24,849 nt of DNA from Myxococcota bacterium (GTDB lineage: Bacteria; Myxococcota_A; UBA796; GCA-2862545): contig JBCCQY010000142.1 of assembly GCA_039208735.1 (NCBI GenBank), forward strand, positions 1-24,849, in the 5' to 3' direction. Of this stretch, positions 6,001-12,000 are shown in pieces. Made by a program: the position numbers. How positions within the stretch are numbered: the first letter of the stretch is position 1; each line of letters begins with the position of its first letter.

Positions 6001-9000
6001 GTTCACTCCCTCCAGTGGAGGATGGGGCAGACCTTTCTCCCTATGACCCTGCGGTGTTCACGCAGCTCGGCCATGAGCCTCTCGTGTCCCTACCGAACCC
6101 CTCGGCCCCAAGGCGCCTATGGTCGTCTCGGGGGGCCTATGCCGTACGCGTGCTGGATCTCTTGCACAAGGGTTACGCGCAAGGGTGGCGCCATGTCCAC
6201 GTGGCGGTTGGGGTACCCTCCCCGAGGCCCGAGCGCTTCGCGTACCCGGCACTCGCCGAACTCTGGGCGGAGGTTCCGCAAATCGAGCGTCGCACGTGGC
6301 TCGACGAACGGTTCCTAGAGGCGGGGTGCGCTCCCCACGACGACGTCACGGTGTGTTCCAGTCTGGACGACGTCGCCACATGGGTGCAGACCTGTCGAAA
6401 AGCAACGTCCCCTCAAGCCGTCACGCTGTTGCAGTTTGAGCGGATCCTGGCCAATGGCAGCGCCGGATGGGTGGCCGACCTCCCCATCGATCTGCTCCGC
6501 GAACGGGACCGACCTCCCATCAGCGTTCCCGAGATGACCCACTGGCGGAACACCGAGTGGCAATCGGTGGTGCCTCACCTACGCGAAGCCGATGGTCCGG
6601 TGTGGCCCACATTGGGCCTGCGAAGCATGGCCAACTGCGAACGGGCTCGAGAAGCGTTCGCGCGCAACGGCGCGGCCTGGACTTCAGAGGCCGTCGAGCC
6701 CTACGTCGGCCAAATGGACCGAGCCCTGACCGATTTCGGAGGGCGGATGGGCGGTGGGCCAACGGTAGCCGTACAGACCGAAAACGAAAACCAATGGATC
6801 GGCACGCCGGAGGTCCAGCCCCACTTTTCACTGTCCGACGCTTCGTTCCGCTATGAAGCCACTCCGGTCGGATGTAGCGTCTATTCCCTGACCAACGCGG
6901 GGCCCCAGCGGGGGCAGTTGCGGTACGTGAATGGACCACAAACGGTTCGGGTGACGCGTGCGGGGTTGTTTGTCGCCAAAAAGACGGTGGATCTTTCCTG
7001 GTGGCCGTTTCGAACCGGTATTCCCCTGATCACCCTGCGACATACATTCGAGGCGGAAATCCGAGCGCACCTCGCGCGACGCATCAAACGCCTGCCGCCC
7101 GGTTCGGAGCGTTTGGCTGCGCTGAAGGACCTCGTCTTTCTTGGCGGATTCGATACAGCGGTGGAACTTGCGAAGTCCGTCCGCTTCACTCCCGACGAAC
7201 GCGCATACACCAAAAAGGGATACCCCGGCGATTACATCGTACCCGGACAAACCACAATCCTCGCTCCGCTCCCCCTCCAGGTCCGATTCAATACGGATGA
7301 GTTACCCGTCACGAAGCTACCGTTTGTTCATGGGCGAACCTGGCTACGGTATGGCCGAGTGACCCTCCCCGGTAAAGGCATCGGTCACCTTACACTCCGT
7401 TCATCCAGAGCCTCTTTTGAAGACGCGTTGCTTACGTTTGAACCAGATAAAGTCTTGGTCCTTGGCGACCACCATCCCTTTCCTCACGATATGGATGGTT
7501 CAAATACGGGATGTGTGGTCACGGACATCGAAATGGATCAACGCTGCCAAGAGGCGTCACGTCCGCCGGCGGTAGGAGACATCCTATCTGCGCATACGGT
7601 GTGCTACGGCCGTGATCAAGGCTGGTTTCCTGGAGTCCTGCGGTCCCGACATGACGACCGGACCTTGACGACGATTTTGATGGCTCCCGACGTAGTGCAG
7701 GTCACTTGGGACGGTGACCGCTGGCAAGCCTGGTTCTCCGAACGAAGCTGCGACGAGCGTTACGACACAGATTCGCTCTGAATCGCCGAACCCACCTGAC
7801 AGCTTGCCAGTATCAAGCTTCCTGCCCCGCCGAGGCGGTTGCGGCTGCCATCGAATCCTTCCCCGTTCACGTCAGGTGACGCTGAAGTCATGGTCATCCA
7901 ACCGAAGCTCCCCTACCCTCCATTGGGTTGGTCATCGGAGACGCCATGGCGGAGTGGGAACACGACTTTTTCTTGGTTCATGCAAGTCCAGATGCATTCT
8001 TTGCGAAGGAGCTGCACAACGTCCTGGTAGAGCGAGGAAAGCGGGTGTTTCTCGACCAAGAGGTCCTCCGGCCTGGAGAACCCTGGGTTGCCCACATCGA
8101 GGAAGCCCTAAACAAGACCGAGATTGTGGTGATCATCGAGTCCCGATATTCCGCCCACGGCCACTACAATCAAGAAGAAACGCTGATTGCCATCGGGCTG
8201 GCCCGAGGACAAAATCGGAAGTCCGCCGTGATTCCCGTGCTCCTCGATGGTGTGCCCCCGCCCTATGGACTCAAGGGGCTGCACGCTCTGCCAGCCCGAC
8301 GAAGTGCAAGTGAACCCGTCGCGGACAACCTCGTCTGGATCCATGAGGTCGCCCTTGCCGAACGCGAAGGGCGCGAGGTTCCCGAGCGACCCGAACCTCC
8401 CCCCAAGCCCCTCCCCATTCCCATCCGGAACCGCAACATCGCACTGGCCATTACGGGCATGGGTCTTTTCCTCGCGCTAGGCGCGCTCGTCTGGCCCCTG
8501 CTGGCTCCCTACCCCCTTAAGGAGGACGTTGACGGAAACCTCGAAGTGATCGTGGGCTCCAAACATATTCTCGAGAGCAACCTGCTCTGCGCGCTCCTCG
8601 CCATTGTCATCACAGAAGACGCCGACGGCTACACCGCACGTTGCACCTACGACACGGGCGGCGGCGAAACCGCACGGGATGCCCTGATGAAAGGGGACAT
8701 CCATATGTACCCCGACTATTCCGGCACGATCCTACACGAGTACACTGGCGACGGCCCTCGAGAGTGGCTGGATCAATTGAAACGCGCCGAATCGGCTCGG
8801 ACCCTCGATCTCAAAACGCTGAATCAACGGGCTGAAGAATACACCGCATTTCGGCAACGCGACACGAGGTGGCACCAGACCTTTCAACCCAAGGTTTGGC
8901 TCGAGTCGCTCGCCCTCTTTGGATTCGACAACGAGTGGGAATTGCTCTTGTCCCGGGCTTTTGTGTCATTACACCCCGATCTTGCTGCAGAAAAGGAGGC

Positions 9001-12000
9001 CCGAGGATTCATCTCACTTGGCACCCTGTTCGGTTCGCCAGCGTGGGCCCAACTCGATGTGTGCTCCTACCCCGAGTTCAAAGACCGCCAAGATGGCCTG
9101 CGTGGCCTAAAGGAGCGCGCACCATCGGGCGACGTTCGAACCGTCGACTTCGCCTCCCCGACCCGACGCTACTGTCGACTGCTTCCGCTTGACTACGATC
9201 GTGCGGAACCAGAGAACACACCCGCACCCTGGTGTGATTTGGTCGATGGCTACGGCACGGACCCAGAGACCGAACTGTTGGTCCACTCTGGCTGGGCGGT
9301 TGCCGTGCGCGACATTCCGATTCGGGGTCGTCACCACTGGCTGACCTACCACCCCGTCGCCCTGTCGCGCAGCGATTTCGTGAGTTCCCACCCAAAGGTC
9401 AAAGAGGCCCTCCAGCTCTTGCACCGCTGCATCAGCAAGGAGGAGATGATTCGGGCCCTCGTGGAACTGCAATACGGGGACGAAGGCGCCACGGAGGAGG
9501 ATGTCTTCAGCGCATGCGTCGATCCGTCACTCATCCACGTGGCGGTCGAGAAGCTGCGGGAAAATGACGAGCTGAAAACCAGGGTGGAGAAGTCCGCCCG
9601 ACGGATGCTGAAGCAGGTTCGTAACAAGGATCGTCAAGGAAACTGCGACCCTGCGCACGTCCCCATCTAGAGCGTCGGACGTGGGAACCCTCGAGTTTCG
9701 CACGCTGAGCGACGTTGTCGGGTTCAGTACCCATCTTGGACCGTAGCGCCCGATGGCATGCCAAACGCCGATCGTGACAACGCAGGCTGCGCTTGCACCT
9801 CGTTCAGGGTGATTTCCGTCACCTGCTCACCTGGTCCATCTTCCCACGAGAACGTGCGGTACTGTCGGGGCAACCGTAAGTCTTGGACGGTTTGTGCGCC
9901 ATCGTAGGCCATGATCTTCCAAGGGCTGTGTTGCCCCTCCTCGAAGAAGCCTGGGTAAGACACGATGTAGCGCAGGGCGATGACGCGCTTGGTTTCGTTG
10001 GCGATGTAGACGACGTAGGCATCGTCATCGGCATCACCGGTGCCATCGGCAAAACTCACCCGTACGAGGGTGCTCGCCTGTCCTTCGAAGGTGGCAGGCT
10101 CGTCGAGTTCGAGCTGAACCCCCGAATCGGCAAGCACGAACGGGATGCCTACGAAGTAGTACGGCGTGAGGGACCAGAATCGCGGATTGATGGGGAGGGA
10201 CGACCCCTCGGGCACCTGTTGCCATGCATGTTCGCCGTCCCAGCCGAATCGCACGTTGGGATCGGCGGCCAACGTATGGACTGCACGACTACGCCACAGG
10301 TCGACCACCTGGCGGGTGTCGCGGCGAGGCTTGCCATTCAGGGGTCGGTAGTCAAAGTGAAAGGCGAGCGGTGAAGCTCCAAACCAAGCATCCAGTCCTC
10401 CGGCGGCTTCGATGGCAGACCAAACCACCGTTCCGGCCTCGGTGCGGCGAAGGCGAGCCTCGGCTTGCCGAGTTCGCTCTTCGATCCATGCGGCTTCGGG
10501 CCGCGCCAAACCCTCCACGTCGCGGGTCGCCTCGGCCTCGTTTGCGGCGGGTGGCGAAACCTGAGTGCGACACGCGAGCAAAATCATCAGCATCCTGGAC
10601 TCCTGTGGGCTCAACCATGCCTCAAGGTCGTTTGGAGTCTGTCTCCGTTTCAGTCCGCTCATCGATACCAGAACCGCAACGCCAACGCTGAGGACGCCAT
10701 GGTAGACTCCCCATTCCCACCAACGGTAGGGTGGCTGGGAAATGCAAGCTCCTCACACTCCAATCATTCAACGCTCCCACTCGCGATGCGTGGTCAACGG
10801 CCTCGACCCCGCCGGACGGCTGCCCGATCGGCTCACCGCACGCGAGCTTGCCGAACAGCGTGAGGGATTTGAAGCGGTCGTGGGCCCCGCGTTCGCCGCG
10901 GTCGAAGACCTTCAGGGGGTCGTGGAGCACTCGCGGTGCGCATTGCTCATCGCCAACCGTGAGGGCGTCATCGTGCATCGCACCGGGCGCAATCGCGAGG
11001 CGACAGCACTCGGACCAGCCATCGATGTGGGCTCGGTATGGACGGAAGACCTGGCCGGTACGAACGGAGTAGGCATCACCCTGTCCGAAGGGGTCCCGGT
11101 CACGGTGAGCGGCACCGAACACCTTCTCGAGACGCTCCATCCCTTCAGCTGCACGACCGTTCCGCTGCTCGATGCCCACCAACGCGTCTTTGGCGTCGTC
11201 GACCTCACGACATGGTCCGCGACCCAGCCCGACATTCCCTTTTTGGCGGACGCGCTGGAGCGTTTGGCCCATGACGTCCATTTTCGTTTGTTCGCGAAGG
11301 CCCATGCCAATGCGTTCCTCGTCGACCTGTCGCTTGAGCCGCCAACCGAGCTTGTGGCGCCGCGGGCCCTCGTGGCCGTGAAACAGGATGGCTCGATTGC
11401 GGGCTTGTCTCAACCCGCGATGCAGCTTCTTGCCTCGATCGCCCCGGAACCTGCCACGACCGCGCTGGGAAGTTTGCTCCGCGAACGATTTGGCGCGGAC
11501 CTCACCGCACTGATGGCATCGCCGGTCCAGGCGGTCAACCGAGCCATGTCCGTGTTTCTACGTATGGTTCGCGCCCCTCGGCAAACGCGCCGCCCTCGTC
11601 AACCTCTCAGCACGGTCCCAACGTCCACGACGCTTGAAGCGCTTGCGGGTCGTGACCCCGTGATGCAGCGTCATGTCGACCTGATCGAACGGGTGCGAGA
11701 CCGGAACCTGCCGCTCTTGCTCCTTGGGGAAACCGGAACGGGTAAGGACGCCCTCGCGAAGGCCATCCATGCGTCCGGGGCCCGGCGCGACAATCCGTTC
11801 GTCGCGGTGAATTGTGCCTCCCTACCCGAATCGCTGCTCGACAGCGAGCTATTCGGCTACGCGCCAGGCACCTTCACCGGAGGCACCAAAACAGGAAAGA
11901 TTGGCAAAATCGCCGCTGCTCACCGCGGGACGTTGTTCCTCGACGAGATTGGCGACATGCCGCTGCCCCTCCAAGGCCGACTGTTGCGGGTCCTCGCCGA

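What a model noticed while it worked through the whole genome (the two positions that open the first line are those of the whole stretch)
7946..9670. Single-pass membrane TIR protein with a periplasmic quaternary-amine binding domain (receptor-like TIR-TM-SBP)
Gene g06584 (574 aa) joins an N-terminal TIR domain, one predicted membrane helix and a C-terminal substrate-binding-protein domain of the betaine/choline/ergothioneine (OpuAC/ProX/EgtU) type; three paralogs keep the same TIR and helix but carry other C-terminal domains. I read it as a receptor built like an inverted Toll-like receptor: an outside-facing small-molecule sensor that switches a cytoplasmic TIR (NAD-cleaving or signalling) domain, possibly sensing osmolytes or thiol-histidine betaines released by prey or hosts. 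New would be ligand-gated transmembrane TIR signalling in bacteria and a ready-made sensor-effector scaffold.
Evidence so far: Pfam: TIR_2 8-120 (9e-17), OpuAC 201-286 (6e-9). Hydrophobic stretch NIALAITGMGLFLALGALVWPLLA at 164-187, the only one found. AF2 model (6-row alignment) pLDDT 76-96 over most of 190-260 and 320-570; Foldseek PDB: the best 40 listed hits are all quaternary-amine binding proteins or sensors built from them: Lmo1422, EgtU-ergothioneine, AfProX, OpuBC (best E 4e-15, TM on target 0.55-0.77). Rarity: word-based search of 5.8e9 proteins gives no full-length relative; exhaustive phmmer of 1.84e9 representatives gives one full-length relative (P0113, 545 aa, 35% id, also TIR + hydrophobic helix + SBP) and four proteins with the SBP-like domain behind a different N-terminus of about 30-110 residues. 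[...]
(Added by a program. Inside this text positions count along the whole contig: contig position 1 is position 1 of the stretch shown here. "Call 12" and the like, gene names such as g00115 and contig names such as C1 are that model's own, and its searches are not shown. The text may have been shortened before it was handed on; [...] marks where a part breaks off. The agent that wrote the report below was given it as the finding of a first reader that could run no searches.)

Follow-up and report, generated by a model that had tools for sequence, protein, structure and literature searches.

The report
Membrane TIR receptor with betaine sensor
A marine bacterium encodes a rare membrane protein that joins an outward-facing betaine-type binding pocket to an inward-facing TIR immune domain, most likely a small-molecule receptor wired into its defence signalling; both working sites look intact, but no ligand or activity has been shown.

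Summary
The gene is real: TIR (8-120), one membrane helix (164-187) and a cluster F-III betaine-binding domain (196-563). It lies on one contig without differences in a second assembly, possibly of the same sample. Both working sites look intact. TIR Glu78 is kept in 139 of 141 subfamily members. Eight of nine pocket residues (aromatic cage, Lys/Thr/Arg carboxylate triad) are invariant in all six clade members despite 35-47% identity. The pocket is AfProX-like and lacks the EgtU determinants, so ergothioneine is disfavoured. The one full-length relative lies in the closest sampled species (GyrB 80%, this protein about 33%), which argues against a recent dead fusion. New here: the other four relatives carry Death-like EAD adaptors in place of TIR. 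One was a truncated call of an EAD1-membrane-SBP protein encoded behind a trypsin-EAD gene. The same EAD type is fused elsewhere to this TIR subtype. A model supports a homodimer (0.60 against 0.00). Best reading: a betaine-type sensor module recruited into EAD/TIR conflict signalling. Ligand, polarity and TIR output are untested. Effector-TM-PBP receptors were already predicted in print, so this is a new variant of a known kind.

The parts
7937..7940 (+). GGAG ribosome-binding-site-like motif, 5 nt before the ATG
   Evidence: sequence
7946..9670 (+). Gene for the 574-aa TIR-TM-SBP protein (P0001)
   Evidence: one contig with no differences in Logan's assembly
7958..8365 (+). TIR domain (about aa 5-140), 'FFxAHA...YxxEE...PYGL' subfamily; cytoplasmic (inferred); no Cys in aa 1-163
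   Evidence: Pfam; AF2 pLDDT 90.3; Foldseek TIR hits
8177..8179 (+). Codon for Glu78, the TIR catalytic-position glutamate (Tyr74 in place of the usual Trp)
   Evidence: aligned to WxxxE of plant TIR 3jrn and BtTir 7uxr; Glu in 139 of 141 (whose printed numbers run +4)
8366..8434 (+). Pro-rich linker ending in a basic patch (aa 141-163)
   Evidence: sequence; K/R 3 before and 1 after the helix, D/E 1 before and 4 after
8435..8506 (+). Single Gly-rich membrane helix (aa 164-187), N-in/C-out inferred
   Evidence: KD 2.17; no dedicated topology predictor available
8531..9634 (+). Cluster F-III quaternary-amine binding domain (aa 196-563); pocket K206, Y258, T261, N329, W331, E377, R381, Y436, Y468; clade marks H207, D236, W331, C215, C410, C524
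9476..9565 (+). Insertion around Cys524 (the Cys524 column is a gap in all 21 non-clade SBP rows) and the residues after it; 527-540 lie in the modelled dimer interface

Best explanation
A type-II single-pass receptor of a defence/conflict signalling network. Shown by sequence and models: TIR with its catalytic Glu, one helix, a betaine-type binding domain with a complete pocket, and a plausible ectodomain homodimer. Inferred: the SBP faces the periplasm and binds a betaine (a carboxylate plus a quaternary amine or sulfonium, probably not ergothioneine; H207, W331 and D236 suggest a specificity unlike transporter SBPs). Closure changes the dimer, because the modelled interface takes in residues of both lobes (236-245 and 371-407). 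That repositions the helices and lets the TIRs assemble and cleave NAD+ or make an ADPR-type signal. The sensor module is interchangeable at its N-terminus: fused to TIR here, and linked through EAD adaptors to separate effectors (trypsin; possibly EAD-TIR) in relatives. The likely cue is osmolyte released by lysed or damaged cells nearby. The polarity (ligand on or ligand off) is unknown.
For: Pocket: 8 of 9 positions invariant in 6 of 6 and E377 in 5 of 6, against 55 of 363 invariant columns overall; mapped to AfProX and EgtU. TIR: Glu78; the subfamily is fused to SAVED (3), EADs (6), iSTAND, NACHT/NB-ARC and kinases among 70 of 144 hits scanned. Both sites are kept in the sister-species copy at 30% (TIR) and 38% (SBP) identity, against GyrB 80%. 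No permease at either locus, and no permease-fused OpuAC-type SBP found in G000 or G014. Relatives: EAD1-membrane-SBP behind trypsin-EAD; P0004 N-terminus EAD7/EAD1-like; an HMM of the three N-termini finds EAD-TIR proteins of this TIR subtype at E 1.5e-11 to 4e-4 (no reversed-decoy hit at E<=10). Homodimer of aa 158-562: score 0.60, best control 0.00, mark reached by 20 of 30 solved pairs and 1 of 23 single chains, runs agree in at least 66% of contacts, pLDDT at least 80. TIR activation by ligand-driven assembly is established for TIR-STING (PMC9402430).
Against: No ligand, activity or expression data. Most pocket residues are also conserved in ordinary transporter SBPs, so they show that the site was kept, not that it gates anything. 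Topology rests on hydropathy, charge and Cys bias. P0002's charge bias is weak (K/R 6 against 4), and most Cys are also kept in the three helix-less EAD-SBPs, which weakens the disulfide argument. The modelled interface is less conserved than the domain mean (0.26 against 0.35) and rests on a 6-row alignment. The neighbourhood is not conserved and holds no recognised defence genes. The beta-A Ser of FISH/FISY is Val here and mostly Ala in the subfamily. A toxic NADase set off by a common marine osmolyte would be costly (inference). The EAD-TIR hits came from a set chosen for TIR similarity, and none could be placed on an EAD-SBP contig.
Confidence: 0.5

Rival explanations
1. A receptor whose TIR acts as an adaptor: ligand still acts through the membrane, but the TIR recruits other TIR proteins of the genome by homotypic contact, as EAD does in the relatives, and is not itself the effector enzyme.
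For: TIR and EAD, a non-enzymatic adaptor (PMC7159879), swap at the same position. G000 has 30 and G014 57 TIR_2 matches that could be partners. The beta-A Ser is absent.
Against: Glu78 is kept in both copies despite 30% TIR identity, and in 139 of 141 relatives. The closest TIR paralog in G000 is only 33% identical.
Confidence: 0.17
2. The SBP is a bait or dimerisation scaffold: it detects an invader's protein or periplasmic damage, and the small-molecule pocket is incidental or only stabilises the fold.
For: Very fast divergence, 33-38% between species whose GyrB is 80% identical, as expected in an arms race. Large clade-specific insertions. Sister TIR-TM-X proteins carry pentapeptide, FGE-sulfatase-like and unnamed ectodomains.
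Against: The carboxylate triad and the cage are invariant while the surface drifts. The three helix-less versions keep the same pocket.
Confidence: 0.18
3. A by-product of domain shuffling in TIR-rich genomes; the domains work independently or the fusion is nearly neutral.
For: Only 2 TIR versions and 6 clade members found. The two carriers are the most TIR-rich of 5 genomes in the genus. No conserved neighbourhood.
Against: Intact frames and intact sites in both copies over a long divergence. The SBP clade always sits behind TIR or EAD, never with a permease in the same chain (6 of 6).
Confidence: 0.1
4. An orphan solute-binding lipoprotein substitute that serves a distant ABC transporter, with the TIR as a regulatory add-on.
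For: The fold and pocket are those of transporter SBPs; both genomes are incomplete (93% and 94%).
Against: No OpuAC-linked permease found in G000 or G014. The clade is separated from transporter SBPs by a long, fully supported stem. Three members have no anchor at all.
Confidence: 0.05

Closest known systems
Cluster F-III QAC binding proteins: Archaeoglobus ProX (1sw1), S. pneumoniae EgtUC (7txk), B. subtilis OpuBC/OpuCC
   Same: Fold (Z 24-26); aromatic pentagon and K/T/R carboxylate site
   Different: Trp at the Y111/Y341 position, His after the Lys, extra Cys and about 90 extra residues; fused to TIR or EAD; no permease found
EACC1 two-gene conflict system, caspase-TM-PBP variants (PMC7159879; passages)
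   Same: Cytoplasmic effector + helix + extracellular periplasmic-binding-protein domain, predicted conflict role
   Different: The effector is TIR, not caspase; no EACC1 hit among the neighbours scanned; a betaine-class SBP is not named there (no OpuAC, PBP or betaine in the two supplements held)
EAD-coupled conflict systems (PMC7159879, PMC8195603; passages)
   Same: Relatives carry EAD1 or EAD7-like domains; one sits in an operon with trypsin-EAD; EAD/TIR interchange at the N-terminus is described for other systems
   Different: The window's protein has no EAD and no operon partner; the variable partner is a membrane betaine sensor
Receptor-like TIR-ParA / PCTM systems (bioRxiv 10.64898/2026.10.19.760177; passages and section 25)
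   Same: Type-II single-pass proteins with a variable extracellular sensor, linked to a TIR effector
   Different: There ParA is the cytoplasmic domain and TIR a separate gene; the sensors named are mostly peptidoglycan-binding
TIR-STING and TIR-SAVED CBASS effectors (PMC9402430; passages)
   Same: A small-molecule sensor fused to a TIR that assembly activates; this TIR subtype is itself found with SAVED
   Different: They are cytoplasmic, bind cyclic nucleotides and need a cyclase gene; here a membrane separates sensor and TIR, and no cyclase was found nearby
Animal Toll-like / IL-1 receptors (PMC7075850; passages)
   Same: Ectodomain, single helix, cytoplasmic TIR
   Different: Inverted order and topology, no LRR or Ig domains, no homology outside the TIR; analogy only
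Halobacterium CosB/CosT (PMC8050422; table passage)
   Same: An OpuAC-family SBP used for signalling of glycine betaine, choline and carnitine
   Different: A separate SBP acting on a chemoreceptor

Membership tests
TIR domain (enzymatic type) | TIR fold | tested here: met
   Pfam TIR_2 62 bits, cut-off 28; model pLDDT 90.3, TMq 0.74 to AbTir 7uxu and 0.78 to TIR-APAZ
TIR domain (enzymatic type) | Catalytic Glu in helix C | tested here: met
   Glu78 aligns with the WxxxE Glu of 3jrn and 7uxr; kept in P0002 and in 139 of 141
TIR domain (enzymatic type) | Other active-site residues (beta-A Ser, Trp before the Glu) | tested here: inconclusive
   Val11 and Tyr74 here; Ala and Tyr are the subfamily norm; the effect is unknown
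TIR domain (enzymatic type) | NAD+ cleavage on assembly | not testable with these tools
   needs an assay
Cluster F-III QAC SBP | Type II SBP fold closest to AfProX/EgtU/OpuBC | tested here: met
   Z 26.1-24 for these, against 16-18 for E. coli ProX, OpuAC, TmoX and DmpX
Cluster F-III QAC SBP | Aromatic pentagon (EgtU F293, N339, Y341, Y419, Y443) | tested here: met
   Y258, N329, W331, Y436, Y468, invariant in 6 of 6; N329 and W331 mapped through the AfProX and Lmo1422 alignments
Cluster F-III QAC SBP | Carboxylate site (EgtU K242, T296, R379) | tested here: met
   K206, T261, R381 invariant in 6 of 6
OsmF/ProX ABC importer | Fused or adjacent permease and ATPase | tested here: not met
   None seen at the window, L006 or L012 loci; genomes incomplete; the loci of P0004-6 could not be fetched
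EgtU ergothioneine binder | Invariant G244 and the F293/Y337 switch | tested here: not met
   I208, Y258, F325, all AfProX-like; weaker ET binding, as in H. pylori, is not excluded
EACC1 system | Upstream EACC1 gene and N-terminal caspase | tested here: not met
   No such Pfam hit in the gene or its neighbours at E<=0.1
EAD-coupled conflict system | The same EAD on sensor/core and on effector | tested here: inconclusive
   Not in the window's protein. Met by HMM at locus L012 (EAD1 on P0164, EAD on the trypsin C-terminus, E 5e-10), though BLAST finds no direct alignment of the two
CBASS/Thoeris/Pycsar | Signal-making enzyme in the operon and a full-length family match | tested here: not met
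   PADLOC and NCBIfam match the TIR part only, NCBIfam far below cut-off; nothing in the neighbours scanned
Toll-like receptor | N-terminal LRR ectodomain and C-terminal TIR | tested here: not met
   Order inverted; the ectodomain is an SBP
Single-pass receptor | N-in/C-out topology | tested here: inconclusive
   Hydropathy, charge bias and Cys 0 of 163 against 8 of 411 agree; no topology predictor or experiment

The most novel reading that the evidence does not exclude
A bacterial danger-signal receptor: an extracellular betaine released by lysed kin or prey binds a dimeric periplasmic SBP and directly switches a cytoplasmic TIR NADase across the membrane. It would belong to a repertoire of TIR-TM-sensor and EAD-TM-sensor proteins that gives these bacteria a Toll-like surveillance layer built from transporter parts.
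Probability: 0.3. Interest if true: 0.88.

Novelty: new variant of a known kind. Interest (0 to 1): 0.6.

Why it matters
In the work I read, ligand-activated bacterial TIRs respond to cytoplasmic nucleotides, and receptor-like conflict proteins with extracellular sensors are predictions whose ligands are unknown. Here the ectodomain belongs to a family with solved ligand complexes and keeps a readable pocket. A short ligand panel and an NAD+ assay can therefore test directly whether a bacterial TIR is switched across a membrane by an outside metabolite. A positive result would link osmolyte release to innate-immune-type signalling in bacteria, give EAD-coupled systems a defined input, and supply a sensor-output scaffold. 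The limit is reach: six proteins found, two of them with TIR.

Tried and rejected
Assembly chimaera: one Logan contig spans the gene with no differences or joints (the run may be the source, so it is not independent). No RNA holder listed. Upstream 620-aa gene as partner: its only homolog among 48 kin genomes is in G014, but on another contig, and G014 is the closest genome by GyrB, so ancestry explains it; none in G429 and only itself. More clade members: none new in the word search with A1 (which also missed P0002-6, so it is insensitive); none among longer proteins (weak); none in 400 other genomes of the phylum at E<=1e-20 (only 3 candidates scored each); none in viral contigs. The metagenome scan gave one orphan 2-helix SBP outside the clade. 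Atlas by features: nothing above 0.75; by structure only OpuAC clusters. One or two origins of the TIR fusion: unresolved; the topology inside the clade changed between runs, AU p 0.155, and the two TIRs are not nearest to each other. Promoter and terminator scan: at chance level. Other SBP-fused receptors in G000: none recognised among 6 Peripla_BP_6 and 3 Phosphonate-bd matches (four of the six read). CHASE2 in G000:C19 and EACC1 in C57, suspected by eye, were not confirmed by Pfam. Earlier scan findings: none. Cys pairs could not be measured because model coordinates are not returned.

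
Full report
Observation. The ORF at 7946-9670 encodes 574 aa with TIR_2 at 8-120 (E 9.3e-17) and OpuAC at 201-286 (E 5.6e-9). 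One strong hydrophobic window lies at 165-183 (KD 2.17). A single 7,958-bp Logan contig of run X1 (marine metagenome, possibly the source of the window) covers 5500-10470 with no differing letters or joints. G000 is an unnamed 9.4-Mb genome, 92.7% complete. I take it to be Myxococcota-like from its gene content; that is inference. The only named clade carrier is a Myxococcota MAG (L012), and the record title of G014's contig says Enterobacteriaceae, which I doubt.

The TIR. With a 70-row alignment the domain folds at pLDDT 90.3 and matches solved TIRs. Glu78 aligns with the WxxxE glutamate of a plant TIR and of BtTir. It is Glu in 139 of 141 subfamily TIRs, with Tyr in place of Trp in 132 of 141 (its printed numbers run +4). 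The beta-A Ser is Val here and Ala in 112 of 141. Of 144 TIR hits I scanned 70 with Pfam: partners include SAVED (3), EAD1/2/5/7 (6), iSTAND, NACHT/NB-ARC, kinases, FGE-sulfatase and TPR. No SBP family was among those shown, though only the best five families per protein were printed. This is a mobile effector-type TIR. Sixteen of the 141 have a hydrophobic helix after the TIR.

The binding domain. VIA-align gives Z 26.1 (rmsd 2.6 A, 271 residues) to EgtUC and 25.1 to AfProX, tied, against 16-18 for E. coli ProX, OpuAC, TmoX and DmpX. I counted residue numbers from the alignments printed and took the EgtU roles from PMC9732360 (passages); AfProX roles beyond Y63 and F107 are recalled. The pentagon is Y258, N329, W331, Y436, Y468, and the carboxylate site is K206, T261, R381. 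All eight are invariant in the six clade members and E377 is kept in five, while only 55 of 363 columns (10 of 31 aromatic, 3 of 45 K/R) are invariant at 35-47% pairwise identity. Most of these residues are also conserved in transporter SBPs, so this shows retention, not a new function. The EgtU marks are absent: G244 is I208, F293 is Y258 and Y337 is F325. H207, W331, C215, C410 and C524 occur in none of the 21 non-clade rows; D236 is invariant in the clade but also occurs in some of them. A betaine other than ergothioneine is the best guess; which one is open.

Relatives. The exhaustive search gives six proteins at E<=1e-30. P0002 is TIR-helix-SBP and is encoded in G014, the only full match among 48 other genomes of the family. 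G014 is the closest of four congeners by GyrB (80%, against 66-74%), yet the two receptors share 30% (TIR) and 38% (SBP) identity and have different neighbours. Both keep open frames, Glu78 and the pocket, which argues against a recent dead fusion. P0003 is a fragment from a 1,658-bp contig. The whole protein, P0164 (660 aa, named EAD1-containing by NCBI), has EAD1, three hydrophobic peaks (1.98, 1.36, 1.82), a Cys-rich segment and the SBP. It follows a trypsin-domain gene and a gene with weak GDSL and peptidoglycan-binding hits on the same strand. P0004-6 have no helix. The P0004 N-terminus resembles EAD7/EAD1 clusters at 0.90-0.93. An HMM of the three N-termini, run on 19,763 sequences, finds four EAD-TIR proteins of this TIR subtype and two G000 proteins at E<0.01. 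A second round adds four more TIR-hit proteins, the trypsin C-terminus at L012 (5e-10) and P0164 (1e-6); the best reversed decoy scored 0.0067. So the SBP clade always sits behind TIR or EAD, and the EAD type also occurs fused to the same TIR type. That is a fusion-based argument for sensor-to-effector coupling, with two caveats: the TIR set was selected by similarity, and no co-location was found. The clade is fully supported with a long stem, but its inner order is unstable. The three helix-bearing members group at 96/94 in one tree only, and one origin of the TIR fusion is not rejected (AU p 0.155).

Genomic setting. G000 has 30 TIR_2 matches, G014 57, G012 20, G013 5 and G011 0. Four of the 30 in G000 are TIR-helix-ectodomain; the other three have TIRs 19-27% identical to this one. 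Among 40 of the 57 G014 TIR loci fetched, five more have this layout, one with an FGE-sulfatase-like domain and four unnamed. TIR-TM-X is thus a repeated theme in the lineage, and the betaine SBP is one of its ectodomains. G000 has one other OpuAC match, a stand-alone helix-SBP with no permease seen beside it, close to a contig end. G014 has only P0002, whereas other kin and G429 have ordinary permease-fused copies. The window's neighbours give no defence signal.

Topology and assembly. The protein begins with the TIR, with no hydrophobic leader. K/R counts are 3 before and 1 after the helix (6 and 4 in P0002), and Cys number 0 in aa 1-163 against 8 after. C233 is present only in the three helix-bearing members, but the other Cys persist in the helix-less ones, which I cannot explain. 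The complex model of aa 158-562 supports a homodimer but does not show it: score 0.60, best control 0.00; the mark was reached by 20 of 30 solved pairs and 1 of 23 single chains; runs agree in at least 66% of contacts; pLDDT at least 80; 6-row alignment. The interface uses 236-245, 371-407 and 527-540, so both lobes contribute and closure could alter it (inference). Against: these columns are less conserved than the domain mean, 0.26 against 0.35, although D236 and G238 are invariant.

Mechanism. Most likely (0.5) a periplasmic betaine-type sensor whose dimer state controls a cytoplasmic TIR enzyme in conflict or danger signalling, by analogy with the assembly-dependent activation of TIR-STING (PMC9402430, passages). 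Rivals: bait or scaffold ectodomain (0.18), adaptor TIR (0.17), near-neutral shuffling (0.1), transporter subunit (0.05). Ligand, polarity and output are inferred, not shown.

What is known. PMC7159879 (passages) describes EADs as coupling adaptors and caspase proteins with TM and extracellular PBP. PMC8195603 (passages) describes EAD/TIR interchange at N-termini. bioRxiv 10.64898/2026.10.19.760177 (passages and section 25) describes ParA-TM-sensor receptors beside TIR genes. PMC11350192 (passages) notes TM domains in some E. coli TIR defence systems. PMC7075850 and PMC8050422 were seen as passages. A search for TIR domain + OpuAC + glycine betaine found 0 papers, and the listings showed no TIR-TM-SBP receptor. 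Supplements: no OpuAC, PBP or betaine in the two held for PMC7159879. For PMC8195603, no OpuAC or betaine in the files searched (one not searched, one cut); the PBP places read in files 1 and 6 include TPR+nSTAND1+PBPB but no TIR+TM+PBP, and most of file 4's places were not read. Preprint supplements were not seen, and subscription papers are not searched.

Verdict. Real, conserved at both working sites, very rare, and tied to EAD/TIR conflict modules. A new variant of a predicted kind, unusually easy to test. Interest 0.6.

Noticed in passing
L012:1092-9080: Myxococcota locus: trypsin+EAD (935 aa), GDSL-like + peptidoglycan-binding protein (751 aa), EAD1-membrane-Cys-rich-SBP (660-677 aa), then a convergent DUF2726 gene; it looks like a complete EAD-coupled system.
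   Followed up: partly
L010:6585-7595 (G000:C64) and L015:2200-3336: Orphan membrane-anchored OpuAC-type SBPs (one and two helices) with intact pockets and no permease seen beside them; long branches outside the TIR/EAD clade.
   Followed up: partly
G014 loci L047, L053, L062, L072, L075; G000 loci L041-L043: A set of TIR-helix-ectodomain proteins with pentapeptide, FGE-sulfatase-like, Cys-rich or unnamed ectodomains; L053 and L043 share an unnamed ectodomain by eye.
   Followed up: partly
G000, G011-G014: TIR_2 matches vary from 0 to 57 within one genus.
   Followed up: no
G000:C120, C18, C19, C1, C20, C47: Several EAD-like domains, mostly not recognised by Pfam: on pentapeptide proteins, on a TIR, and on helix-ectodomain proteins (L039, L040).
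   Followed up: partly
window 5919-7781 (+): 620-aa protein with a lipobox-like start and no family hit; one 24%-identical homolog in G014 (L023) on another contig.
   Followed up: yes
G000:C271:191-1588: TIR fused to a ParA-like P-loop domain (by eye), recalling the TIR-ParA systems of the 2026 preprint.
   Followed up: no
window 10742-15619 (+): GAF/sigma-54 activator (Pfam) followed by genes that look like an acetoin dehydrogenase E1 alpha/beta, lipoyl carrier and lipoate ligase (by eye).
   Followed up: no
window 17283-18791 (-): CheB-CheR fusion, next to an Omp85-family gene (18902-20167).
   Followed up: no
window 1221-3737 (-) and 3790-5364 (-): An 838-aa secreted-looking protein with an RTX Ca-binding repeat (paralog on C4, homolog in G012), and a 524-aa LRR-like protein with a paralog on C196.
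   Followed up: partly
L011 record title: The contig of G014 is labelled 'uncultured Enterobacteriaceae bacterium', although G014 is a 7.9-Mb congener of G000; probably a wrong label.
   Followed up: no
P0004-P0006: Helix-less EAD-SBP proteins keep five to seven Cys in the SBP although they should be cytoplasmic; unexplained.
   Followed up: partly
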